Made by a program: the position numbers and the translations under genes
Shown here: one piece after another, positions 1 through 40,637 of the stretch
Layout of the letters: each line of letters begins with the position of its first letter
How positions within the stretch are numbered: the stretch's first letter is position 1
Notes under the pieces: model-generated
Database searches by the model: none
Told to the model about the DNA's origin: nothing
Seen by the model: only the letters and a program-made list of their open reading frames with translations
From: Pelomyxa schiedti
Lineage: Eukaryota > Protista > Evosea
Assembly: GCA_020536535.1 (NCBI GenBank)
Contig: JAHLWZ010000939.1
Span: 1-40,637, forward strand
DNA length: 40,637 nucleotides
Direction: 5' to 3'

Positions 1-218
1 CATGGAACTCCTTGGATGTGATGCAGACCTGCCTTTTCCCTGCCACCGTGGCCGAAATCACGAATAACTTGTCTGGGTTGCAAGGAGACATTGCCACCAT
101 GCAAGGAGACATCACCACCATGCAAAGAGACATCGCCACCATTCACAAGGACTTTACCAAGCAGGAGGATCTGCTCCGACAAATACTCGAACGTTTGCCC
201 CCACCACAAACACCATGA
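1..218 (+). CDS. 3' part of a multicopy coiled-coil protein with (MQGDIAT)n heptad repeats; 5'-truncated by the window edge
   Basis: The frame is open from the window edge (WNSLDVMQTCLFPATVAEITNNLSGLQGDIATMQGDITTMQRDIAT...LPPPQTP*). A paralogous copy lies inverted at the other end of the window. Confidence 0.7.
   Translation, partial: WNSLDVMQTCLFPATVAEITNNLSGLQGDIATMQGDITTMQRDIATIHKDFTKQEDLLRQILERLPPPQTP
1..218. repeat. Left arm of an inverted repeat (partner 40321..40637)
   Basis: The first ~140 nt are nearly identical to the reverse complement of the last ~140 nt of the window. Similarity continues to the shared ccacaaacaccatga stop and then ends. Confidence 0.9.
78..140 (+). repeat. 21-nt coding tandem repeat, 3 units (atgcaaggagacatcgccacc consensus)
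   Basis: ttgcaaggagacattgccacc / atgcaaggagacatcaccacc / atgcaaagagacatcgccacc. Confidence 0.9.
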
Positions 219-305
219 CCCAAAACTGAGAACAAGACTCAGATTCAGCACCACGAATTTTTTTAGTGTACCAAAGTTCCATAACATCAGGAAACAGACA
301 ACAAC

Positions 306-3300
306 TTACACCATCTGCCTGAAGCTGCCACCCACCTCTCGGAGTGCGGCTGAGATTTGCCCCAGGGAGGCGTATCTGACGGTATCTAGCAGGACTTCAA
401 AAACGTTGGCGCCAGATGACGCGGCGGTCCTCAGGTGCGCGAGCCACGCGGGCGCCACCGTCGAATTCCTGGCTCGGAAAGCATTGGTGCGCGCGATCTG
501 CTTGTCCCAGTCGGTCTGTTCTGGCCTGACGACGTGCAGCCCAGTTCCGGCTGAGGCATCTGTGCCCCCGCCAAAGTCAGACAGCGTCGCCGAGTCCAGC
601 ACGCACACGTTTCGGCCGATTATGGGACGCTTCCCTCTGAGAGTGAGGAGGGGGAGGAATGTGAGGAAAGTGAACTGAATTTGGAATAGGAAATGAAAAG
701 GAAAAGGGATAGGGATTGGAATTCACCTGGAAATGTCATATTCGTATTGGCAGGATGCCGTGGCGATGCAATTTCTGTGGTATCCGAGCTCGGTGGCGGG
801 CCCAACTCCGCCCTCTTGGTCTATGGCCTCGAGTTCCTTGATTGATTTGTTACATTATTGACTGTTTTGATTGCGTGTGTGGTTACCTTGAGGATTTGCT
901 CCTGAAGCCCTTTTCTGATTGTACGGTGTGCATAAGAACCACTGAAAAGGTTCTCTGCTCTTAGAAGCTCAGCCTAACTGATTTAGAAAAAAATACATAA
1001 TAACTTGCATTTTCCTCCTACCTCAACAGTCAGGAAGTTGGGAATCATTGTGGCCTGTCTCACATATTTAGCAGATGGAGTTGTAAGAGGTTCATCAGCA
1101 GAATCCACATGAAGAGAATTGGTGTTATTCATTAGAGCTGAGAAGAAGTAATTAAAGACTGGGATTCCTTAAGAACTAACTTACCCATTAAGGCGTGGAA
1201 CGTCTGCCTAACAGGGTTGAGGGATTCCCATTCTGTAAAACTATATAAGACAGAAAAATAAAATAAGGAAGACCTGTACCTGGAATTTGCAGTGCTCGGC
1301 CAGATGTCTGAGTGTGGTATTTAAACGCCTGTGACCTCTCATTACCGTGATAAATGTCACGCAGAGCAACTGCCCATATTTTTCGGCAAACAGGGCCCGA
1401 GACAAGCCACTCCAGTTCATGTGAATTACGAAGGAAAAAGGAGAAATTAGGGGCAACATCATTAACCCCCATTCCCCTGCCAAGGAAATTCTCCAAATAT
1501 GTGAATCCATTGCTTAAGGAGTAGGCCAGTTCCTGCCACTTCTTAGTGGAGAGTTCAGTTGCTATTAATCGAACCTGAACAGGCGTTGCTCCAGCTTCTC
1601 CTATATGATAACCAGAAATGGAAATGCTGTAAAACTTTTGTACATGCTTTTTGATGAAAAATTCTTGTACATCTCCCATCAACTTGACGGCGAAATCTTC
1701 CTGTTGTGGTATTACTATAACACGGTTGTATGCTTAGTTGTACCTGGAAAATGCATTCATTTTGGGCTTGCATTTCTTTCAATATATCGGCTTGAATTGT
1801 GCCTCTCAGCATGCAGTATGTGCAGTCTCTTATCTCTTGGACCTATTGATTAAGTTAACTTTAGTTTCATACGAAATTCAAGTGTACCTTACTGCAGAGC
1901 AAGCCATATTCTGGGTGAATATCAGTCGCTCTGAGTGAACCTGGGCCTGGAAGTGTTGGATCTACCACAGAAACTTCTTCTGGATGTTGCTTTTTGTATT
2001 TCTCGATCATGTAATCGCATGCAGTATTGAAATACATGGCCAGTATAATAGCAGCAGGTCCATTGATTGTCATTGACTGTGTATTGATTATTACAGGAAT
2101 TGGAAGGAAATCTGATACTGTAGAAATTTTTTCGAAGTCAAACCCTGAATACAAAATCTTCATGTCATCTAGGGTACTGAGGGAATCTGAGATTCGAAAT
2201 TACTGTCTCTTGCTAACAAACCTGATGGAGACTCCTCCCTCTCCGATTTTACCAATGGACCCTGCATCCGTATCACAGTCATCTCCATACAGGGTAATTC
2301 CATCAAAAGCTGTACTGAGGCGTGGGCAAGGCACTCCCTGGCTTAGGAAATGGAATCGCTCATTTGTATGCTCTGTGATTGATGTCATAAAAACAACAAC
2401 CATTAAAATAAGGAAGCTCACCAGCAAGCCTCAATCCCGCGAACTGCCTAGTAGTTTGAAGAGCACTCTCTTGTCGTAGAGGGAATACACCATTGATATA
2501 AGGGAAGCAACCAGGAAGACCCTAGTAGATGTGGATGTAAGAAAAGGTCAAATAGCACACAAGCAAGAGGGGAACCTCTTCTAAAAGGAACTGAAGCATT
2601 CCTGCTGTATCGTCTCGATCGGGGATTGCAATCTAAGGCACATCATTTTTGATTCTTAATTGGGAGAACTACTTTTGGGATTTTCAAGCCATTGAAGCTA
2701 GTATAGTACAAAGTTTTGTTACATGTTATCTTCTCCCAGGTCTGTTCCCAGCCTGCCATTAACTAAAGGGAAAAAAGAGCTCAATACGTGTTGACACTAA
2801 GTACAGGGAAATACCTGTTGACAATAGGAATCACATGCAGCAAGGCCTGAAGTTCGACACAATTTAACCTGGTTGGCGGTGTACGTGTCATATTTCCGAA
2901 CTGCATCTACTACTAGCCCCAGATAAGAGCGTCTCGAGTGGGGAACCAGAGAGGTGAACTTGTGTATATTAAAATCTTTAAGGGATCTCTTCCAGTGCAT
3001 ACCTTGAGGGTTGAAAATGGATCCACGCCAGTGAATTTATATATTGTCTCAAAGGATAACCTCTTACACATCCAAGTGTACATATCCACAGTAGCGGGGT
3101 TGTTGGCCAGTTTGGTCACAGTGGGGAAGAGCTGAAAACTTTCATTACCGAAGGCAGTTTGTCTTGGAAAACGAACTTTTTGGTTTGGATTGCAGACTGA
3201 GGCATGAGCAAGAAGAACTTGCAACTGATCACACAAGGCCTTGGATCCCTCTCTGTCTATTTTGTTCAGAATTATGGCATCGGCTTCAAGAAGCAATTGG

Positions 3301-4799
3301 TCCTTCTCCAGCTGGAAATCGCGAGGTATGTTATTATACTGTATTCTCAAGAAAACGTTCATTACTTGAATGTGGACACTTCCAAACTCTTTGGTTTTCA
3401 CATAGAAGAGAAGGTCTGGCTTGTAAGGTGCAAAGTCCAAACCAACTTGACCTGCAAAGCATAAGTGAGAGAGAAATACTTCTCACTTTCTTACCAGTGC
3501 CTGGAGTTTCAAATATTACAAGGTCAAAATAACCAGCACGAAGAATACTCAACATCTTGGAAAGAGATGGGGGGAAGTTGCCATATACAATTCGGGTTGC
3601 CACACTCCTCATGAACACATTTGGCTTGTAAATATTGGTCATTCTTATCCTATCTCCTGCGTGAATGTAAGTTTCGATATGGGCATTATCCCAGAACTTC
3701 TATACACATACCAAGAAGGGCCGAGATATTTCCACCCCGATTGGTGGTAGGGTCAATGGAGAGAATCGCTAAGTTCCTCCTTGTACCACTGGGTTGATCT
3801 TGGCTGAACAGTCCAGCAATTTCATCTGTCAAGGTGCTCTTTCCAGCCCCTCCATCTCCTATTCACCGTTATCAACACGGCGGTACATATGAAGTAGAAT
3901 ACCAGTAACAGCGATCAATTTTCCTTGCTTATTGTAGGACTTCGCTGCGGCTAAGTACGCGGACATAAGTGACTCACATTTTAAACCTCGTGGCGTAGAA
4001 GCTCCTCCATTCGCTTCTAGCCAGCAGGATTCTTCAGCAGCATTCAACTGTGTAATATTATTCCGGCAAACGAAGTTATTACTTGCTCACAATTAGACCC
4101 AGTGCCCACTTGGCACCACTTATTGCAGCTGATACAATCTCTGTTTCACTACGAGATTCATCACAGTTTTCTACACAACGAAGAATCACATCTTTTGCTA
4201 GATTTTCCAAGGTCCTGAAGACAATTACTTACTAGCATTTAAAAGCAATAAATACCATTTTTGGCCATACACATGAGCTCCAGCCTTTTCAATCAACTCT
4301 TCATCAGCCGGAAGTATGGTTCCACCCCCACCCCCAACCTTAACAGGAAAAAAGTTGACATTGCCTTGTGGGCTACAAATAGTCACGATACACAAAACTC
4401 ACCACTACAGAGTTTCCTCCCGCTTCTTTGATGTTCCGCACTAGTGCCGGAAAGAAATGGTTATGTCCTCCATTGTAACTACTCACAGCCACACAATCGC
4501 AGCCCTCCTCAACAGCAGCTTGTACCAGTTCACAAACCTAAGAGTGAGGTTAAGTACACACAACAAAATCAAATAGATACTAAAACAAACAACAATTTCT
4601 GTCTCACCTTTCTGTTGAACCCCACATAGATCAATTCCGTCGACGCGGCGACATTCGGAGTCTCTCTGAGCGCCCGATTTACTGCGTGTATCGAGGCATC
4701 GTGGCCGTCGTAAGCCGCGCACCCTGTGATTATTCGAACGGGCCTGTGGGGGACTGGTTTTTCAACTGCAGTGGCGGCTGTATTGCTTGTTTCTGTCAT
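306..4799 (-). CDS. icmF: Fused isobutyryl-CoA mutase IcmF (cobalamin-binding domain, MeaB/MeaI-like GTPase, mutase TIM barrel); about 20 short introns
   Basis: The spliced translation gives the IcmF domain order. B12 motif: VRIITGCAAYDGHDASIH, SSYNGGH, GGGGGTI. GTPase: P-loop VTGDGGAGKST, SIDPT, LLGDRIRM, FMRSVATR, ETPGTGQ, NKID. Mutase: TTRQFAG, RLSTAFDGITLYG, RGTIQADILKEMQAQNECIF, FYSISISGYHIGEAGA, YHTQTSGRAL, C-terminal NVFEVLLDTVRYASLGQISAALREVGGSFRQMV*. Confidence 0.93.
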
Positions 4800-5267
4800 T
4801 TCTAACAGTCTGTGTATGGTTTTTGTCTTCACTTTGGTTTTTTTTCTTGGTAGCTTCTCGCGTTTAAAAGGTGCTTTTTTGTTTTCCCGTTATTTTGCCT
4901 TGGACGTATCTTTGGGATTCCGCGACGGTGCTTTTTTTTGTCCACGGTGACTTGACATTTCATTTCCAAAACCTGTGGATATAATCCTGTTGCCTAATTC
5001 TTTTCCGAGGAACAAATGCACGTTTTTTTTCTGGTTGTTGTACAGTACGACCAGAAGAAAAAAAGGAAAAAAAAGAAAAAAGAAATGTATTTGCTGTGTG
5101 CAGGGTATTCATAGGATGAAGAAGCATGAGGTTGAGCAGGAAGCTACTTGTAGCCGGAATAGTTAAAGTCCGCCCGATTTGACTAGAGAGCAAATCCGGC
5201 AGAGCTTTTAGTATTCCGTAGACCCTGGATAAACTGCACAGCAAAGATAGCACCACACAAGCCGATA

Positions 5268-25293: not shown

Positions 25294-27595
25294 TCAGGGG
25301 TTGCCAGTTTTGGAGGACAACAGCACCATTGTTGATGTGGACGCTGAGGAACCTGAACTTGCAGCAGAGGGCAGAAGAGTAGCCGTGTGATAACTTGAGG
25401 TCACACGAGGGGGCTTGGCAGGCGCGTCGGCCATTCCCAGTGACAGAGTCCGGAGTGTGTCCTGCACGAGCTCCTGCAGTGTTGGGAATCCCGGTGGATC
25501 ATCAAACGTGAATATGCCTTCGCTGTTGCTGTTTTATTTGGGTGTGTGGGTTGGGAGTTTAATGCCACAGAGAGTAGGATGTACCTTGTGGGCAACCGCC
25601 GGAATCTTTTGTGTGAAATTCCTCCTACGATGTCATGCCAGGAGAATACAAAGTAACCAAGCTCACTGCCACTGAACCTTACAAGCCACGATTTTGGTGC
25701 AGCCAGTAATAGTGCTGTGTTGGAAGTGCTTATGTTGCCGTGGAAGTAGGCCAACCCTATCACTTCATGTATCTGTGGCGAATTACGTTTTTTTTTTTTT
25801 TTTTTATAGGAAGAGTGTGGAACCTTTTGTGCAAGTCCAATACCTTCCGATATGCTACCAAAGCCATCGAGAATGGCCATGCGTTCTCTGGTCACTATGT
25901 CGCTGTCGTTCTCTATTTGTTGGTTGTTTGGTGGGAGTGATGATTGAAGGCTTCGGCAGCATACCAACCAAGACCTCTTGCATCGATTGCAAGAGTGGAA
26001 TAAGAGGTGTTGTAGAAATATCAGGTGTTCCTGCGTATTGCACAGAGAGAGGTCGTCCTTCAGGAACAAGGTTGAATTCACAAGAAAAAGCATCAAGGAA
26101 GGCTGACCAAGGTACCGCTGTCTAATTTGTGGTCAGCAAGAGGAGTGGAAAAGGGGAAGGGGAAGGGAAGGAAGACCTGGTACTGGAAAAACTTCAGCCA
26201 AAATTGATTGGTAGGTGGGTCAGGAATGATTACGTGGATGATCTGATTTAGACATGTGTAAATTACAGTGTGTGCCCAGATAACTTACTCTTTGACGTAG
26301 ATTGGAGACAATGTAAGGAAAATCTGGTCTGTTTTCAGGTTTGCCATCCCAGCAGCGCCTTGGTTCAGAAATTAATTAAATTCTTTGATGAAGAGGAAAA
26401 AGTAACTGCATGAGATCAACATATCCGGGATTTGAGTTGCGGGGAATAGGAGGTCTTATATTATTGTTACAAATATCCGTCGCAAACTCTAATTCAAATT
26501 AAGAAGAGTTGGAATTTTCATTTCCTTACCACTTAAAACAGTATAAGACGGGAAAAGAGGAGCACGTGTAAGAATTTGCCAAAGAACTAAACCAAAACTG
26601 AATCCTCCCAGTTAGATTAAGTGCTTTTAAAGTGTAAAGTACCTATAAACATCAGCTTTTTCGTTGAAACCTTGCCCCCTCAAAACTTCTGGAGCCATCC
26701 AAAGAGGAGTCTGGTGTAGATATAAGATGCGTGAAGACATGTGCTGAGAAGTACCCCCTTTGCCACAAGTTTGTCACGCAATACAGCTTGGCCATTTGGC
26801 CTTAATTCACTTAATCCGAAGTCACAAACCTACCATAATGTTTGTGACCAAATACTTAGGTAAAGATTTCACCAACTTTCACATGGTTATGTTGATCTAC
26901 AAGTAGATTGGATGCTATGGACATCATTAGTGACTTTTTTAAGGATTGTGGCCAATTTAACTCTTGAGATCTCTGTGTATAATAGCAGGGTTTGAGGAGT
27001 GTAGCCACGATACACCTAGTGCAGCTTCTGTAGCCATTGTGAGCCTGATAGCAAGTGGCATGTGTTTTGATGTGTCCAAGAGCAGGCTTTCCAGGTTATT
27101 CTGGTATAAACCCAATTGGTGAGTACTAGGGTGAGACCCGTGCAACTTACACTCAGAAGCTCCATGCAAATAGAAATTTCATTACTTTTGGAAGTGCAGG
27201 CTCCCATAAAGAGGCAGACATTTGGGTGAGCAACCTTACTACAACAGGCCTTACTTAGATAAACAGAGCTCCATCTCCTACCTCATAATGGCAACTTCAT
27301 TTCTGAAGCTCCTCATAGCTCCCTCATCAAGACTATGCGTTACAACCTTGACTGCCACTTGTGTACTTCTAAGAAATTACTTAACAAAAAAAAAAAAAAA
27401 AAAAACCTCACCTGCAAATCCCACTCCAAACAGTGCCAAATGCACCTTTAGAATAAAGGGAAAAAAAGTCAGTCCAAGCAAGAGCCTAGTGACAACCAAA
27501 AAACCACAGTGGAATTCCCTACCACCACCAATTGGATGAAGCAGGCGTATTTCTTCAGGAGAAATTTCCGGTAGCCCACCAAAACGCGCCGCCAT
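25294..27595 (-). CDS. shk: Shk-type tyrosine-kinase-like (TKL) protein kinase with a C-terminal SH2 domain
   Basis: LPEISPEEIRLLHPIGG|GAFGTVWSG, VAVK, HPNVCLFMGAC, IIHRDLK|TSNLL, VCDFGLS, TPLWMAPEVL, EKADVY. SH2: YFHGNISTSNTALLL...WLVRFSGSELGYFVFSW. This is the architecture of the Dictyostelium Shk kinases. Confidence 0.88.
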
Positions 27596-27662: not shown

Positions 27663-30600
27663 TCAATAGCGCCCTCCGATGGGCCTCGTTTTTTTCGTGT
27701 GTTCTAGCTGGCAATCTAGAAGGGCAAGTTGGTACTCCAGCTCCTCGGCGTCGTCTTTGGAGACTGGCTCCCATTCCAGGTTCTGCAGCGGTGTTATACT
27801 CGCGTCCTTGGTTGTTGTCGATGGTGGGGTGGCTGTAGCTGTTGACTTGGACTTTGATTTGGGTTTGGATTTCTGCGGTTTGGGGGAGGAAGGACTTGTG
27901 GGAGGCTGTGTTGGTGTCGCTGGCGGTGCAACCGGTGCTGCTGTTGGTGTTGTTGGTGTGGTAGTGGCAGTACTAGTGGGCAGAGACAGTGAGAGCCTGC
28001 GGCACGCGAAATTGTACAGCTTGGTGGTGGCCGAGGCCACGCGGCTGGCTGCCTTCTGCACGTTGTGGTGCTCGGCCGTGGGGGGGTAGCACATGATGGT
28101 GATGTTGGGCGCCGTGGCGTGCGCGTTCGGGTGGTAGCTGCACGTGCTCACGAGGCGCGCCGTGGCGACGGCGACGCCTTTCCCTGCCGAGGCCAGGAGC
28201 GACTGGAAGAGCACATCCTGCGCGGCAAATTTGAGTGAGGAAAACGAACCCCGGTTGGGATTATGGGTGGGTGGGTGGGTGGGCGAGGGGGGAGAGGCGT
28301 GCCGTACCTGTTTGGCTGATAGAAGAATGGCACTGGCATTGAGAAGGTCCTTTGTACTTTCAGCAACTGCACTTGAGGCTGTAATCATTTCGTCGGCGGC
28401 CTGTTGATATTTCGCAGAGAAAGTCTGTTTTTGTGTTACAACAAAAGAAAAGAGACTGAAGAACGGCCAACGAGTCTTCTCAATGTGCCAGAAATCTTTT
28501 TGGCCTCAACTGTACTGAGAATAAGTGAAGTAGTCGAATCTGCAATCTCCCGTAGAAGGGAGCAGAACGAACTTGAAGACTCTTAGTAACTTTCGAGGAA
28601 AAAAGAGAGAAAAGAAAATACTGGAAATCAGTTTGGTCCAGAGTTTCATTGGAAAGAGTTTGTATGAGTGAGGCACAAAAACTATCCAGGTCCTTGATTA
28701 AAGTGAATCTAATTTATACAGAATTTATGAAGGACACACGTTTGCCAGAGTGAGAATGGCTGGTGAAGTATTCACACCAGCTAGTCCCTGCCTGACAGCC
28801 AGGGAAGCAAGAGACCCAGGTTTAGTGTGCGTAGGACGAATGGGCTTGGGATTGCTGTGAGTCGGAGGTGGCGGTGGCGGTGGAGGCGGGGGCGGTGGTG
28901 GTATTGGTGCCTTTGTAAGAGGAGGAGGAGGCAAAGATTTGTTTGGGGAACGCATGGTTACGGAAGGGGAAGGGGGTAATGGTGTTGATGGAGTTAAGAG
29001 GAGTGGACGTGATGGGGTTGGACTTGAGGCAGATGTGGAACTAAAAGATGCTCCTCTACCAGGAGGAGGTGGCGGTGGTTGGGTTGATGGAAGAGCCTTC
29101 CCTGATACTGTTGTTCGGGGAAATATTGCCAAGGTTTCCTCAAAGCATGCAAGACTTGTTTCTTGGTTCGAAAAAGAAACGGAAAATTATGGGAATACCT
29201 CTTTTCGAGCCCCACATCAATGGCTTCAAACCTGTCACCTCTAACACCGCCTGCCATACAGTAGGTCATATTAATCAGAGAGAGGAAGGACCTGAAGCGA
29301 TCTCAGACATATAGGTGATCAGACTGCTGTGAATATTTGCAAAGCTTATCTCTAGAGGTTCTTTGATCTCAAATCCTGGAGAACAAATATTGGTACCAGG
29401 AATAGAATATTAAGCGAACTGTAGGTATAATGATGTTAGTGGGAGAATAAACCATTCACAAGGTCGAGTAGTTGTTGTAAGCCTTCTGTAGTAGCTTTTC
29501 CCAATTGAGATAAGCGACTTTGGGTAAAGTCCATCTGATCCGAAGGACTGAAAGGTGATTAGAGAAGAGAAAAAGGTGGAAGGCCAATGTTTCATGGCCT
29601 TGAATCACAAGTAAAGTAAGCTTACTTTACAAAGCTATCTATGAAATCTGCAATGGTACTTCTGACTACGGCAAATTGCTTTCCAATAGCACCAGCCCTG
29701 AAATAATCGTTTAACGTGTTAAGAACATTGCTGGGTATTACGTTGAGGTGTGAATGGCTTTGGGGGTCAAATTTTCCATGTGTAACTTGATTTCAAGTAA
29801 TCCACATGCAACAACTGGAATACTTTGTATAAACCCAAAGAGATCATGGGAAAACCTCTATCGATTGAAGTAGAAAGGAAGTGCTTTAAATCCTGAAGGG
29901 ATTCAATCATTCCTTGAGAAACTCTGTCTAAAGTTTTTGACAGAAATTCCGATGGTGTCTCTTGCATGCCTAGAAAAATCCTTAAATTGAATAAGGGAGG
30001 GAGTATATACTTTTCCCAACAAGTATCACTTGCTGTGAGGTTAATAAAACCCCTTTAGCTGCTGCATATAAACCCTACAGAAGTATTAAAAAAAAGAGGA
30101 GTGCCGTAAATACCTACTTGAACAGCAACAGTGTCCCTCATAATACTACTACATAATTTTAGAGCGTCCCTGAGACCATGAGCAAAAACAGAGAGAGAAT
30201 TGGTGAGTTTTCCGAACTCTAAGCAGGCTCCTGCTTTGTTGGATGCCAAGACATCCTGGGGATATTAACAGAAAGAACAAAAGGAGTAATACCACACCAG
30301 TATCTGAACTCTTAGTGCGGACATACTATCTACGGAAGAAATAGCTTCATCGGTAACAGAAGTTAAGGTAACACTGTGGAGTAAGTAAAATAAATAGAGA
30401 AAAAATATGTGTTTAGTTGCCTTTCTGGAAGATCATTTCTATTTAGAAGTTGACCGGCAACAGCAAAAACAGAATCAGATGTTACAGCATTCAATGCAGA
30501 AGATAGTTTATTAACAGATTCCTTGTGACATTACAAGGCATAGCAAGAGAACGCAAGAACCTGAATAAGAATGCGTCCAGTAAGGAAATCTCTTTCCTTT

Positions 30601-32024
30601 AGCTTTTCTGCAGCTATTTGGGCGGGAAACTTAAATTTTGGAGTGGCATCTTGAATTTCATCTGGAGATGCCCCAGACATCAGGATGGGCACATGGACCT
30701 TGAATTAAACATAAATGCGAAAGCAACATTGCCCCAAGGGACGTACTTTTACATCGTTACCAAGGGTAAGAACACATCGTGCAATTATCTTGTACCACAC
30801 TTCCAATATTTTGGCCCCAGTCACTGTTGGCTGCAAATCGAGATGCCTTGGAACCAAGAGGGGGATGTCAGCAACGTAATCTTCCTTGACAACGGGGAAT
30901 CCTTCTTTGACAGGTATGACGGACACTCGTTTGTTCTCCTTGGATGCTCCGAATTTCATTGCTGTTGCAGGTTATCTGCCTAAGCATCGTAATACTGAAT
31001 GTGAAAGCTGCATACTTTGTCGCAAGTATACAGTGCAAGATTGAACTGGCTTAGATGATACGTTGTGAATGCGAACCCTAATAGTGACCTAATGCTTTTT
31101 AAGTAAAGAGGTCTGTTTCCGGGTACAAACTGTGTCACCAGGGTAAGTAATTTGCTTATCAGCAGTAGCATCCAGATGAAAGGAATTACGATAGCCCATA
31201 TTGGCACTTACAGTTGCAGGAATTGTTGTAGGGTTCAGGCATGGTTTTACTGCAATGCATTTCAGTAAAGGATGACATGACTGGCAAATGGTACCAACAC
31301 GCACGATTTGTTCCAATTTTGCAGAATCACGCCAACTTCCACTCAGTCTTACCTTCATTACCAAAGAGTATTCTACCTTGACCTAAAGAATGTCCAGTGT
31401 GAAAATGAACCAAAGAATCAACACAGGAAAAAGCACCTTGCCACACTTGAAAGAGCAGGAAGGAGCAGCGTCGGTTGGTATTTTAAATGAAAATGGATAT
31501 GTCCCCAAACTTTGTGCAAAAATTTCAGAGGGAGGCTTATTGCTTGGGTAAAGGATGGCTTTTTCAGAGAAGTGAACCCGTCTCTTTGGCGTTCCCTGAT
31601 CAAAAAGTGAAAAAAAGGGGGGCTATATCTCACAGGCGATAAAGCTTACCCCAGGTACAACACGATCAACAGCCATGGCAACATTTGTAGCTTCTCTAAA
31701 TTATGGGTTACTTTAACTCCCATAATCGCAATGGGTAACGAGGCAACAAGTTGAAAAGAGGGATACAAACGAGGATGTTGTGGTCTCGACAGCTTCAAAG
31801 ATCAGAGTTACTCTCTCTATCTTGGACGACTTTTTAGATTTCGCAACTGACGCCGTGAGCTGCTGCGCCACGACTCCAGTCGCAGCGTGTTCATGTTGGC
31901 TGCTCATTATTCCCATAACTTCGCCACACAGCGTCGCCACCCCGCTGATGTTCGTGCCCGTGGCCCACAGCACTTTGTCTCCGTCATACTTGATAACAGC
32001 CGGAGGCCCACGGCCCAGCGACAT
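27663..32024 (-). CDS. Arrestin-fold N-terminus, talin-rod-like helical bundles, polyproline linker, C-terminal I/LWEQ (THATCH) actin-binding domain
   Basis: Arrestin-like: GTYPFSFKIPTDAAPSCSFKCGK|VKVEYSLVMKV, DKQITYPGDT, LQPTVTGAKILEVWYKI. Talin-R9-like: SVFAVAGQLL...GLYAAAKGVLLTSQQVILVGKS. PPPPPPPPPPPPP linker. I/LWEQ-like: LLREIADSTTSLI...EMITASSAVAESTKDLLNAS...LLASAGKGVAVATARLVSTC...VQKAASRVASATTKL, then terminal helix EELEYQLALLDCQLEHTKK. An in-frame splice path was traced across the domain junctions. Confidence 0.72.
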
Positions 32025-32215
32025 TCACAGGTTTCGAGAAAAACACTCTTGTGAGATCTGAGAACGAATGTGGGATTCAGTAGCCCTTCGACATCGAAGC
32101 GACACCACATGGCGAATAGGTGTGAAGGGAAAGAGACATGAGTTCCCTGCCTCTGAGTTTCTCATCAACAATTTGGTTTCGAAACAGTTCGTTTAACAAA
32201 CAGCAGCTGTTTGTC

Positions 32216-34640
32216 ATGTTTCGGATAGTGGTTGAAACAGACCAGAAGACAAACGCATCAGCACTGTCGTGCGACACTACGGATGTGACTGCAAGCGGAT
32301 CTGTTTGTGCCCCATCTCCAGATCTACAATCGCAAACGGGACTAAAAACCGGTGTTGTTCATACACCACCCCTTGTGTCGCCCAGTGCACCAACCGCGTT
32401 GGTTGGAATTGCTGCTCCCGCATCCGGCTCCGTTACGTGCTCGTCACCGCCGCTGCCGCTGCCGTCTCCGCCTGCTCCCGAGGACATTGCTGCGCCGTCG
32501 GGGGACGACGGGGGCGGCCCTGCTGCGGCCGCTTTTCCCGAGAGGGTCTTCTTCAACTGTGGGAATCCTTCTGTGGAAAGTATCACTGGGATAATCCACT
32601 TGTACAAAAGCAATCCTAGAAAGGAGGGCTCGCCTCCGCCTTCTCACCACGCTGCGGAAACACACAATCCTCAACAAGGGGTTGACCAACCCGGTCTGCC
32701 CACTGACCCACCAACGCAACTTGTTGGTGACCGGCAGGCTCAACCGCCAACACAGGCACTCCAAGCACAAGCAGTCGCTCAAACGTTACCTCAGACACAA
32801 CAACAAGCTGTTGACAGTAACAATCCACAGCTCAACATTCCGAATAGTACTTTATTGTGTGTGCTGGCTGTGCCTTCATACCTCACAACGTCGGATTTTG
32901 CCCGTTTCATCAGTGGATTCCATAGGTCAATTCACTACATGAAATTACTACGGTATTTATTCTGTCAAAACTCATCCTTGCATATTTGGCACACACGTTT
33001 TCTCACAAGGGTAATCTCTCACAAGTGATGCATCCCCCAATAAATACATGGTACTGCTCAAGTTTGATGATCAACAAAGTACTGATGACTTCTACTTTGC
33101 TTATAACGGCAGAAGATTCAGCTCACTGGAGGTGAATGAATTGTTAGGTGGAAATCTTTTCTAAGATTTATCATAGTTGGAAACCTGCCATGTTTTATAC
33201 GTTGCAAAAGTTGAGTTTATTTCTCCTTCCACAGCTCAACCTCTGTTCCCACCACCTGGTTTGACAGAACTTCCAACATGTCCTGTTTGCTTAGGTTGAG
33301 TTTCATCCGAATACTGAATTTCTTAGTCATCACTAGAACGGATGGATGCTGATTCAACTGGCCTACTCACAATTCTTTGTAACCACACTTTCCACACAGA
33401 GTGCCTGGCACAGGTTTCTTGTCTCTTCTATACAATCGCTAATTGTAGATAGTGGAAAGCAAGTGGTTGTCCTGTTTGCCGCTATGCGCAACAGCCATTG
33501 GGTTACGATACAAAATGCTATTCTTGTGATTGTACTGTATCCAAAGAACTCTGGATCTGTTTATTATGCGGCCACATTGGCTGTGGGCGGTTGGTTTTAT
33601 TTGCATTTTTACCATCATCTCACTGCTCTTCAATAGGTTTACTCATTCACATGCCTTTGAGCACTTCAAGTCAACTCGGCATGCTTATTCTCTTAATCTC
33701 GAGACAAAACGCGTCTGGGATTATGTTGGAGATAATTGGGTTCACCGCATTGTGCAGAATCGCACTGATGGAAAGCTTATTGAGGTATTGGGTACTTCTG
33801 TTTTCTCTTCCACTCACTCAATGCTTCTGCAGTTAGACTCCAAAGTAATGTCTTGCACTCCTGAAGCTTATCTTCTTAATTTGTGTCCCTTGTAGGATGA
33901 CAAAATGGCAATGAACTCTCTAGAAATGGAGTACACCCAGCTACTGCAAAATCATCTTGCTGTATTTGAGCGGGAGATGACGGAACTAAAGCTGGAACAC
34001 AGGCAACAAATGAGCAAAATGATTTCTGCACACAAAGTTTGTAAGAGAACCCTACGGTGATTACTTAAAGAAATTCTAGGAACAAATGGGCTCACTTCAC
34101 AAAGAAATTGCTGCTCTGAGTGGGCAATTATCCAAACTGGAAAAAGAGAGGAAACACGAAGCGGCCAAGGCTAAAGCAGCACAGCAAAAGGCCTTACAAC
34201 TTGCTAATGAAAAAGAAGAGCTGATTGACGTATGCTACGAACTTCCGCCTAGTACCCCAATCAACTTTTAAAGCAAAATCGAACATTGCGGGAGTCCAAT
34301 GAGCACCATTTGGAAAAAGTTGAGAGACTGGTCAAGGATGACACAAAAGATCGCAAGATAGCAGCCCTAGAGGTAAACAAACCCCTTTCCTTTTGCCAAT
34401 ATACCAACACATGAAAAGGCAGAGCTCAAGGACCTTATGTTCCATCTAGAAGCCCAAGAGCAGGTGAAAAACAACACGGAGTTGCAGCAAGGAAACATAG
34501 TAACCCAAGCACCTCCATCACCCCCAACTACAACCACAGCCACAACCACGAACACAAGCACAAGCTCAAACACAAACACAACCACAAGCACTTCAACAAG
34601 TAGAGGAAGGGGTACAAGAAGAGGGGGACGAAAGAGTTAA
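32216..34640 (+). CDS. BRAP: BRAP2/IMP (yeast Etp1-like) RING and ZnF-UBP E3 ubiquitin ligase
   Basis: FFNCGNPSVESITGIIHLYK. BRAP2 domain LLCVLAVPSYLT...NKYMVLLKF...YNGRRFSSLE. RING ELPTCPVCL|ERMD...ILCNHTFHTECL...CPVCRY. ZnF-UBP LWICLLCGHIGCGR...HAFEHF...TKRVWDYVGDNWVHRI. Coiled-coil C-terminus. Confidence 0.93.
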
Positions 34641-40205: not shown

Positions 40206-40320
40206 ATGTCAACTCCTTGCTGTTGAAAAGGAATGTTGTATTGCCGTATTCACTTGTTTTTTGCCCATTTGGAGCAATTTTTATTCTCCTAGGCTTGTGT
40301 GTAAGGGTGAATTTTGGGGA

Positions 40321-40637
40321 TCATGGTGTTTGTGGTGGTGGGGGCAGACGTCGGAGTATTTCCTGAAGCAGATTGGTCAGCTTGTCAAAGCCTTCCTTTG
40401 TCTCCGTTTTGAAGGTAGCAAAGTCCTTTTTCATGGTCGCGATGTCCCTTTGCATGGTGGTGATATCTCCTTGCATGGTGGCGATGTGTCCTTGCATGGT
40501 GGCGATGTACCTTTGCATGGTGGTGATGTCTCCTTGCATGGTGGCAATGTCTCCTTGCAACCCAGACAACTTATTCGTGATTTCGGCCACGGTGGCAGGG
40601 AAAAGGCAGGTCTGCATCACATCCAAGGACTTCCATT
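40321..40637 (-). CDS. 3' part of the second heptad-repeat coiled-coil gene copy (right arm of the inverted repeat); 5'-truncated by the window edge
   Basis: WKSLDVMQTCLFPATVAEITNKLSGLQGDIATMQGDITTMQRYIATMQGHIATMQGDITTMQRDIATMKKDFAT...LPPPPQTP*. Confidence 0.75.
   Translation of the reverse strand, partial: WKSLDVMQTCLFPATVAEITNKLSGLQGDIATMQGDITTMQRYIATMQGHIATMQGDITTMQRDIATMKKDFATFKTETKEGFDKLTNLLQEILRRLPPPPQTP
40414..40560 (-). repeat. 21-nt coding tandem repeat, 6 units plus one degenerate unit
   Basis: Same atgcaaggagacatcgccacc unit as 78..140, with a higher copy number. Confidence 0.9.

What the first reader, a model, noticed from the sequence alone, without database searches (positions are those of the whole stretch)
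27663..32024. Arrestin-talin chimera: an arrestin head on a talin rod and I/LWEQ actin-binding tail
Seen: arrestin N- and C-like sandwiches (about 30700-32000), a talin-R9-like bundle (about 29850-30500), polyproline tracts (about 28860-29080) and a full I/LWEQ-like domain with its terminal dimerisation helix (27663-28570), linked by an in-frame splice path. Established: I/LWEQ (THATCH) domains are known from talin (FERM head) and Sla2/HIP1R (ANTH head); arrestins are cargo adaptors; polyproline binds profilin, SH3 and WW domains. Inference: a third type of THATCH protein that couples arrestin-recognised membrane cargo directly to F-actin during endocytosis or phagocytosis.
Basis: partly seen in the sequence, partly recalled or inferred. 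Interest (0 to 1): 0.75.

Follow-up and report, generated by a model that had tools for sequence, protein, structure and literature searches.

The report
Arrestin head on talin-like tail
A single-celled eukaryote carries what is likely one gene joining a cargo-gripping arrestin head to likely talin-like helical bundles, a long proline run and a likely worn-down copy of talin's actin-binding tail, a pairing not seen in the papers searched that would link membrane cargo to the actin skeleton.

Summary
Partly confirmed. A stop-free 22-exon path (1084 aa) runs from 32024 to 27663 on the minus strand. RNA contigs support 6 of its 21 introns, none in the arrestin half or across the arrestin/bundle joint. 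One gene is likely (about 85%): the joint donors score well, and the one GC donor is GT in another run. The arrestin head holds up: Arrestin_N E=0.005, Arrestin_C E=4e-5. Proline runs (6 and 13) are real. The tail looks I/LWEQ-derived only weakly: Pfam E=0.19-0.41, ESM Atlas 0.88, PDB talin-1 E=0.33. It is not a 'full' domain: no core Trp, apparently Ser-Tyr-His for talin's actin-binding Lys-Val-Lys, and a short end helix lacking the Arg2526 equivalent. 'R9-like' is unsupported, and a second helical bundle was missed. Folds were uninformative. No relatives were found, and this scan had not noted it elsewhere. Best reading: a lineage-specific arrestin adaptor tied to actin assembly, with a degenerate THATCH-like tail. 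New variant; interest 0.5.

The parts
27663..32024 (-). Predicted single gene, 22 exons, 1084 aa
   Evidence: all exons open, phases agree; 6 of 21 introns RNA-supported; splice-site scores
31300..32024 (-). Arrestin N-like domain (exons 1-4, about aa 1-180; boundary approximate)
   Evidence: PF00339 E=0.0049 on exon 3, E=0.0066; below cut-off 24.9
30680..31200 (-). Arrestin C-like domain (exons 4-7, about aa 215-340; boundary approximate)
   Evidence: PF02752 E=4e-5, 24.4 bits against cut-off 27.7, with intron-encoded residues still in the query
30522..30560 (-). Intron 7 (39 nt), the arrestin/bundle joint; holds an in-frame stop at 30533-30531
   Evidence: donor 94th, acceptor 63rd percentile; no RNA cover
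30374..30420 (-). Intron 8, GC-AG; donor is GT in run X4
   Evidence: G>A at 30419 on the + strand in one X4 contig; donor flanks 98th percentile
29856..30521 (-). Helical region A (exons 8-12, aa 380-541), probably a helix bundle; family not identified
   Evidence: amphipathic-helix moments up to 1.9; introns 9 and 10 in RNA; no Pfam hit on 5 of 5 exons
29120..29814 (-).
   Evidence: introns 16 and 17 in an RNA contig that runs on into the proline exon
28863..29078 (-). Proline-rich linker: Pro6 (aa 692-697), LPPPP (aa 740), Pro13 (aa 751-763), 20 PxxP in exon 18
27996..28810 (-). THATCH/I-LWEQ-like helical core (end of exon 18 to exon 22, about aa 780-974); no Trp; Ser927-Tyr928-His929 at the end of the helix-4 equivalent
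   Evidence: PF01608 E=0.19-0.41; ESM Atlas 0.88 with 179 shared features; PDB talin-1 E=0.33 and 0.37; residue census; introns 18 and 19 in RNA
27759..27995 (-). Thr/Pro/Ser/Lys-rich linker, 79 aa, predicted disordered
   Evidence: an RNA contig lies on 27701-27967
27690..27758 (-). Terminal helix (aa 1054-1076) with Leu1060/1064/1067/1071 on one face; shorter than talin's dimerisation helix
   Evidence: (best-scoring segment of a low-confidence model)

Best explanation
This is likely one gene for a roughly 1080-residue adaptor whose arrestin head likely grips membrane cargo, and whose proline runs and likely talin-derived tail would tie that cargo to the actin cortex, with the worn tail predicted to bind actin filaments weakly at best. 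Shown: an open exon path, partly RNA-backed; tandem arrestin N and C similarity; proline runs; helical exons. Inferred from family knowledge: the arrestin sandwiches bind cytoplasmic tails of receptors or transporters and/or phosphoinositides. The two helical regions act as talin-rod-type spacers or tension buffers, like Rend/R12 in front of THATCH in End4p (PMC11476202). The Pro13 and Pro6 runs recruit profilin-actin or SH3/EVH1/WW proteins (recalled), and this is probably the main link to actin. The tail descends from an I/LWEQ module, probably by exon shuffling from a talin or Sla2/HIP1R gene, but has apparently lost the Trp, Lys-Val-Lys and dimer Arg that give talin its F-actin grip.
For: One gene: exon phases agree over 21 introns. 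The donors of the 15 introns without RNA support score at a median 96th percentile under a profile trained on 15 RNA-shown neighbour introns; joint introns 7 and 8 score 94th and 98th. The one GC donor, predicted from the sequence, is GT in run X4. The only in-frame ATG near the joint (30680) lies about 25 nt after the stop in intron 6, against about 70 nt between this gene's stop and the next gene's apparent start. RNA contigs link bundle B to the proline exon and that exon to the THATCH-like exons. Arrestin; accepted amoebozoan arrestins have similarly weak E-values (for example 0.00025 and 0.00016; PMC2515105 supplement passage). Talin-type tail: I_LWEQ and Talin_IBS2B are the top 2 Pfam hits, talin-1 chains are the only 2 PDB sequence hits of exon 21, and 9 of 10 ESM Atlas rows shown carry talin or I/LWEQ families, the best sharing 179 features. 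Degeneracy: one search set against the residues in PMC2168396.
Against: No RNA covers 30444-32435 or bridges introns 1-8, 11-15, 20 or 21. All talin-family scores are sub-threshold and not independent: they may all reflect Ala/Ser/Thr-rich amphipathic helices, and the Atlas recognition value of 1660 is under its 2300 mark. No relatives were found, so conservation cannot be tested. There is no PPxY/LPxY, NPF or clathrin-box motif in any exon, so nothing ties it specifically to endocytosis. Placing Ser-Tyr-His on Lys-Val-Lys rests on a recalled family motif as anchor. No binding was tested.
Confidence: 0.5

Rival explanations
1. One reading: a fully working third class of THATCH protein. The tail dimerises through its end helix and binds F-actin directly under load, so arrestin-bound cargo is pulled by actin as with Sla2/HIP1R.
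For: The order of parts matches THATCH: helical core, linker, terminal helix. The leucine heptad face at 1060/1064/1067/1071 is kept, and basic residues Lys866, Lys913, Arg921, Lys955 and Arg959 could form a rebuilt actin surface. Asn931 falls at the place where talin D2447N raised binding to 144% (anchor recalled). I/LWEQ clusters are the top Atlas hits.
Against: There is no Trp in the core. Lys-Val-Lys is apparently replaced, and talin's triple mutant keeps only 27% binding. In both plausible registers the Arg2526 position is Gly or Tyr, and talin R2526G is monomeric with 33% binding. The linker is 79 aa against about 20 in talin.
Confidence: 0.22
2. One gene, but the helical parts are generic or only distantly talin/vinculin-like bundles, not an I/LWEQ module: an amoebozoan-style arrestin with accreted scaffolding domains and no special actin link.
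For: No talin-family hit passes any threshold. A 1.8-billion-protein search with the tail gave 2 hits, both bacterial Ig repeats. Arrestins of Dictyostelium and Entamoeba readily acquire extra domains (PMC2699828; PMC2515105).
Against: Three different libraries rank talin or I/LWEQ first. The helix-4 equivalent matches I_LWEQ positions 42-68. A separate leucine-faced terminal helix sits where THATCH has one.
Confidence: 0.15
3. Two tandem genes, or a short main isoform: a roughly 390-aa arrestin ending at the stop in intron 7, followed by a headless talin-rod/THATCH-like protein.
For: No RNA crosses the joint. An AATAAA lies at 30512, 19 nt past the intron-7 stop. The genome is compact, and truncated talins are reported as common in amoebozoan data (bioRxiv 2020.04.29.069435).
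Against: AATAAA occurs 12 times on this strand in 19.9 kb (8.1 expected). Exon 8 is open and helical and is spliced onward by a donor that varies GC/GT between runs, so it belongs to the downstream half, yet it has no in-frame start of its own. The intron 7 donor scores at the 94th percentile.
Confidence: 0.13

Closest known systems
Amoebozoan arrestin-domain proteins (Dictyostelium AdcA-F, Entamoeba arrestins)
   Same: Divergent tandem arrestin N/C core with weak Pfam scores, extended by extra domains (PMC2699828 passages; PMC2515105 passages and supplement search).
   Different: The appended domains reported there are C2, FYVE, SAM, MIT, LIM and WW; talin, LWEQ, vinculin and actin have 0 occurrences in the 4 supplementary files held. 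No PY motif here.
Sla2/End4p/HIP1R
   Same: Membrane or cargo-binding head, proline-rich region, rod-like bundle and C-terminal THATCH with end helix (PMC11476202 passages).
   Different: The head is arrestin, not ANTH. The prolines lie directly before the THATCH-like core rather than near the head. No long central coiled coil is evident. Key THATCH residues appear absent.
Talin (R-domain rod and R13-DD / ABS3)
   Same: Series of Ala/Ser/Thr-rich amphipathic helices ending in an I/LWEQ-like core plus terminal helix; weak sequence and language-model likeness.
   Different: No FERM head, which PMC1702346 states all known talins have. At most two bundles precede the tail, with a polyproline insert. 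No Trp2389 equivalent; Lys-Val-Lys and Arg2526 apparently missing; 79-aa linker; 1084 against about 2540 aa.

Membership tests
Arrestin clan (alpha-arrestin/ADC type) | Arrestin N followed by arrestin C domain | tested here: met
   Only Pfam hits on these queries, in the right order: PF00339 E=0.0049 and 0.0066, PF02752 E=4e-5
Arrestin clan (alpha-arrestin/ADC type) | Scores above Pfam curated cut-offs | tested here: inconclusive
   17.3 against 24.9 and 24.4 against 27.7 bits, but on a single exon or with intron-encoded residues inside the query
Arrestin clan (alpha-arrestin/ADC type) | Two-lobed beta-sandwich fold | not tested
   No model of the head was made; an Atlas query with exon 4 gave unnamed clusters only
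Alpha-arrestins | (L/P)PxY motifs for HECT ligases | tested here: not met
   None in any of 22 exons, each scanned alone; motifs split by an intron were not tested
I/LWEQ (THATCH) domain | PF01608 match above cut-off 27.5 | tested here: inconclusive
   11.1-12.2 bits, E=0.19-0.41, on fragments lacking helices 1-2 and broken by a 30-codon intron
I/LWEQ (THATCH) domain | Five-helix bundle fold like talin R13 or the HIP1R core | tested here: inconclusive
   Single-sequence models at pLDDT 44 and 50 show the three helices supplied; searches give generic bundles only
I/LWEQ (THATCH) domain | Core tryptophan of block 2 (talin Trp2389) | tested here: not met
   No Trp in aa 667-1048; importance from PMC2168396. 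Tyr867 might stand in
I/LWEQ (THATCH) domain | Basic actin-binding triad at the end of helix 4 (talin Lys2443-Val2444-Lys2445) | tested here: not met
   No Lys or Arg between residues 922 and 954; with Arg921 placed on Gln2437 (anchor recalled) the triad is Ser927-Tyr928-His929
I/LWEQ (THATCH) domain | C-terminal dimerisation helix with Leu2515, Arg2519, Leu2522, Arg2526 | tested here: not met
   A helix with a leucine face is present (aa 1054-1076) but short. Best register keeps Leu1071 and Lys1075 but puts Arg1078 and Gly1082 on Leu2522 and Arg2526; the other register keeps Gln1063 but puts His, Thr and Tyr on Leu2515, Arg2519 and Arg2526 (registers set by hand)
I/LWEQ (THATCH) domain | F-actin binding, inhibited by helix 1 | not testable with these tools
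   Needs co-sedimentation
Talin | N-terminal FERM domain | tested here: not met
   The N-terminal 534 codons give arrestin hits only
Sla2/HIP1R | N-terminal ANTH domain | tested here: not met
   Same scan
Talin rod domain R9 | Sequence or fold match of aa 380-541 to R9 | tested here: inconclusive
   0 of 5 short exons had a Pfam hit; exon 10 had 0 PDB hits; the pieces are too short to decide

The most novel reading that the evidence does not exclude
A third head type on the talin/Sla2 actin tether: an arrestin-rod-polyproline-THATCH protein that transmits actin force to arrestin-selected cargo in endocytosis or phagocytosis. It would use an actin-binding surface and dimer latch rebuilt without the Trp, Lys-Val-Lys and Arg held to be essential, showing that the THATCH mechanical module can be re-headed and re-wired.
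Probability: 0.22. Interest if true: 0.72.

Novelty: new variant of a known kind. Interest (0 to 1): 0.5.

Why it matters
In the papers read, I/LWEQ modules are described only behind a FERM head (talin) or an ANTH head (Sla2/HIP1/HIP1R), and amoebozoan arrestins carry lipid- or protein-binding add-ons but no actin tether. An arrestin joined to a THATCH-derived tail would put cargo selection and the actin link of endocytosis or adhesion into one chain. It would also be a natural test of which THATCH residues are dispensable. Its weight is limited: it is seen in one lineage, with no relatives found, a degenerate tail and an unproven joint.

Tried and rejected
Homolog searches found nothing usable. 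Last exon against longer proteins: 0 of 7988 candidates scored. Exon 4: 0 of 148. Arrestin half against 775-2210 aa proteins: 0 of 5349. HMMER over 1.84 billion representatives with the tail: 2 hits, both bacterial Ig/cadherin repeats, rejected. Metagenome contigs: 0 of 600 stretches for the tail, 1 of 138 for exon 4 (a 17-residue match, L001, rejected). A single-exon neighbour protein is also absent from the protein collection, so this genome's proteins may not be held, and these nulls are weak. PDB sequence searches: tail 0 hits, its helix 4-5 part kelch/envelope noise, exon 20 a designed protein, arrestin half a phage tail fibre at E=0.23, exon 10 0 hits. Two single-sequence folds of the tail were low-confidence (pLDDT 44 and 50). 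Foldseek gave no hit at E<=0.001. VIA-align gave generic coiled coils and three-helix bundles, best Z 6.9 and 9.0, with no talin or HIP1R in the top 50, which is uninformative for such models. Homodimer prediction of the last 45 residues: no answer, score 0.02 against mark 0.32; not evidence either way. The Atlas query with exon 4 gave unnamed clusters only. No whole genome is held, so paralogs and the organism's own talin and Sla2 could not be checked. RNA contigs give no cover over 30444-32435 even at 80% likeness; absence in these shallow contigs proves nothing. The in-frame path as proof of one gene was rejected on the controls. AATAAA at 30512 as proof of two genes was rejected as a chance-level word. 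The spliced full-length protein was neither scanned nor folded, which leaves the I/LWEQ score and the identity of both bundles open.
Full report
Setting. The window is from an intron-rich, compact eukaryote genome. Neighbours include eIF1A, a SNF2 ATPase, MeaB and methylmalonyl-CoA mutase segments, a GT49 glycosyltransferase, BRAP2/zf-UBP head-to-head about 200 nt upstream, and kinase and SH2 segments downstream. The RNA runs that hold it are single-cell protist libraries. An amoebozoan origin is my inference from gene content and was not tested; no whole genome is held.

Gene structure. Three-frame translation and a per-exon check give 22 exons from 32024 to 27663 on the minus strand: 1084 codons plus stop, 20 GT-AG introns and one GC-AG intron, 17 of 21 introns 39-54 nt long. 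The 15 RNA-shown neighbour introns listed (26 more joints were not shown) are 42-62 nt. A stop-free path is cheap in such sequence: the opposite strand has one with 24 introns and 10 of 30 shuffles have one with 22-30, against a minimum of 16 on the real strand. Better evidence: RNA contigs from X1 and X2 (one sample, one study) show introns 9, 10, 16, 17 and 18 as joints, and intron 19 through a 12-base loose end equal to the start of exon 20. These tie the second helical region to the proline exon, and that exon to the first THATCH-like exons. No RNA lies on 30444-32435, so the arrestin/bundle joint is unproven.

Why one gene is still likely (about 85%). Under a profile trained only on the 15 neighbour introns, the 15 unconfirmed introns have median donor and acceptor percentiles of 96 and 83. 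Joint introns 7 and 8 have donors at 94 and 98; some acceptors are poor (intron 11 at 9, intron 6 at 38), as are three RNA-confirmed ones (34-39). The GC donor of intron 8, predicted from the sequence, carries a C-to-T change to GT in one contig of run X4, one of 9 substitutions listed for that run. That makes exon 8 part of the downstream half, and exon 8 has no in-frame start; the nearest in-frame ATG is at 30680, about 25 nt after the intron-6 stop. Against this: an AATAAA 19 nt beyond the intron-7 stop, though the word occurs 12 times in 19.9 kb against 8.1 expected.

Head. Exon 3 alone hits Arrestin_N at E=0.0049. The first eight exons share one frame, and that frame read through its intron stops hits Arrestin_C at E=4e-5 and Arrestin_N at 0.0066, and nothing else. 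Both are under the curated cut-offs, but accepted Dictyostelium and Entamoeba arrestins score similarly (PMC2515105, supplement passages). No PY motif, NPF or clathrin box was found. I take the head as an arrestin-clan domain pair.

Middle. Residues 380-541 and about 541-677 are proline-poor exons with amphipathic-helix periodicity, so probably two bundles rather than one. None of the 9 exons 8-16 scanned hit Pfam at E<=10 (exon 17 was too short to scan). 'R9-like' is therefore unsupported, though the pieces (21-46 aa) are too short to exclude it. Exon 18 then carries Pro6, LPPPP and Pro13, with 20 PxxP.

Tail. I_LWEQ is the top Pfam hit at E=0.19-0.41, with Talin_IBS2B second where it appears. 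Exon 21's only 2 PDB sequence hits are talin-1 rod constructs (E=0.33, 0.37). The ESM Atlas puts I/LWEQ clusters first (0.88, 179 shared features; 9 of 10 rows shown carry talin or I/LWEQ families), but with recognition 1660, under the tool's 2300 mark. These signals agree but are weak and not independent. Folds without an alignment were low-confidence and matched only generic bundles. I put descent from an I/LWEQ module at about 75%.

Against the residues defined for talin in PMC2168396 (passages and Table 1): there is no Trp in residues 667-1048. There is no Lys or Arg between 922 and 954, and with Arg921 on Gln2437 (anchor recalled, not from a call) the Lys-Val-Lys triad is Ser-Tyr-His. The linker before the end helix is 79 residues against about 20. 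The end helix keeps a leucine face (1060, 1064, 1067, 1071) but stops near 1076, and in both hand-set registers the Arg2526 position is not Arg. Talin R2526G and End4p R1093G are monomeric and lose actin binding or bundling. The tail is therefore THATCH-like and is not filed as a member.

Mechanism. Most likely (0.5) a lineage-specific adaptor: the arrestin pair binds receptor or transporter tails or lipids (family knowledge). The bundles act as spacers or tension buffers in the manner of Rend/R12 (PMC11476202 passages). The proline runs recruit profilin or SH3/EVH1/WW partners (recalled). The degenerate tail adds weak actin contact at most. No binding, localisation or force step is shown.

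Known or new. Paper searches: LWEQ with arrestin, 9 papers, 8 listed; THATCH domain with arrestin, 5 papers, 3 listed; arrestin, talin-like and amoeba, 0; a five-term architecture search, 14 papers, 13 listed. By titles and abstract starts none reports an arrestin-THATCH fusion; most were not opened. Passages were read from PMC2699828, PMC2515105 (plus a term search of its 4 held supplements), PMC3971589, PMC4824007, PMC1702346, PMC12686525, PMC11673790, PMC11476202, PMC2168396 and bioRxiv 2020.04.29.069435. They list C2, FYVE, SAM, MIT, LIM and WW as amoebozoan arrestin add-ons, and FERM or ANTH as I/LWEQ heads. The bioRxiv paper notes many apparently truncated talins in Amoebozoa; its supplements could not be seen and may bear on novelty. 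PMC8738963 (isolated End4 THATCH does not bind F-actin alone) was seen as listing and abstract start only. The library lacks most subscription papers, and no domain-architecture database was available. No relatives were found, but a neighbour protein is also missing from the collection. Earlier scan notes hold no such fusion.

Verdict. A real and probably single gene with an apparently undescribed arrangement of known modules; the direct actin-coupling claim is doubtful. New variant of a known kind; interest 0.5, or 0.72 if the tail proves to be a working actin tether (probability about 0.22).

Noticed in passing
window 28232-28664: A contig of run X3 skips 433 bases with 9 bases fitting either side, removing most of the first three helices of the tail; another X3 contig and X4 hold most of the skipped stretch. 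A deletion allele or an amplification artefact.
   Followed up: no
window 30522-31770: The first seven introns all have lengths divisible by three and each holds an in-frame stop (10 of 21 introns are 3n overall; 3 of 15 neighbour introns). Noticed after the fact; may be chance.
   Followed up: partly
window 28218-28307: Predicted intron 21 is 90 nt, 63% G+C, in frame and stop-free, with no RNA support; if retained it would put a 30-residue Pro/His-rich insert between two helices of the tail.
   Followed up: no
window 30419: A splice donor that is GC in the window and GT in run X4.
   Followed up: yes
window 2-225 and 40312-40636: The two ends of the window share an inverted repeat (151 nt at 95%) with a 21-nt tandem unit that reads as a coiled coil; probably a dispersed repeat family that broke the assembly.
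   Followed up: partly
window about 300-4900, minus strand: MeaB GTPase (E=9e-7) and methylmalonyl-CoA mutase (E=2e-21) segments lie in line on one strand with introns, suggesting a fused IcmF-like mutase-chaperone gene (label recalled) in a protist.
   Followed up: no
window about 25400-27594, minus strand: A protein kinase gene starts about 70 nt after this gene's stop, and an SH2 segment (E=1.2e-4) follows further down the same strand; whether they form one kinase-SH2 gene was not checked.
   Followed up: no
window 32126-33900, plus strand: A BRAP2/zf-UBP ubiquitin-ligase gene lies head-to-head about 200 nt from the arrestin start codon, so the two may share a promoter.
   Followed up: no
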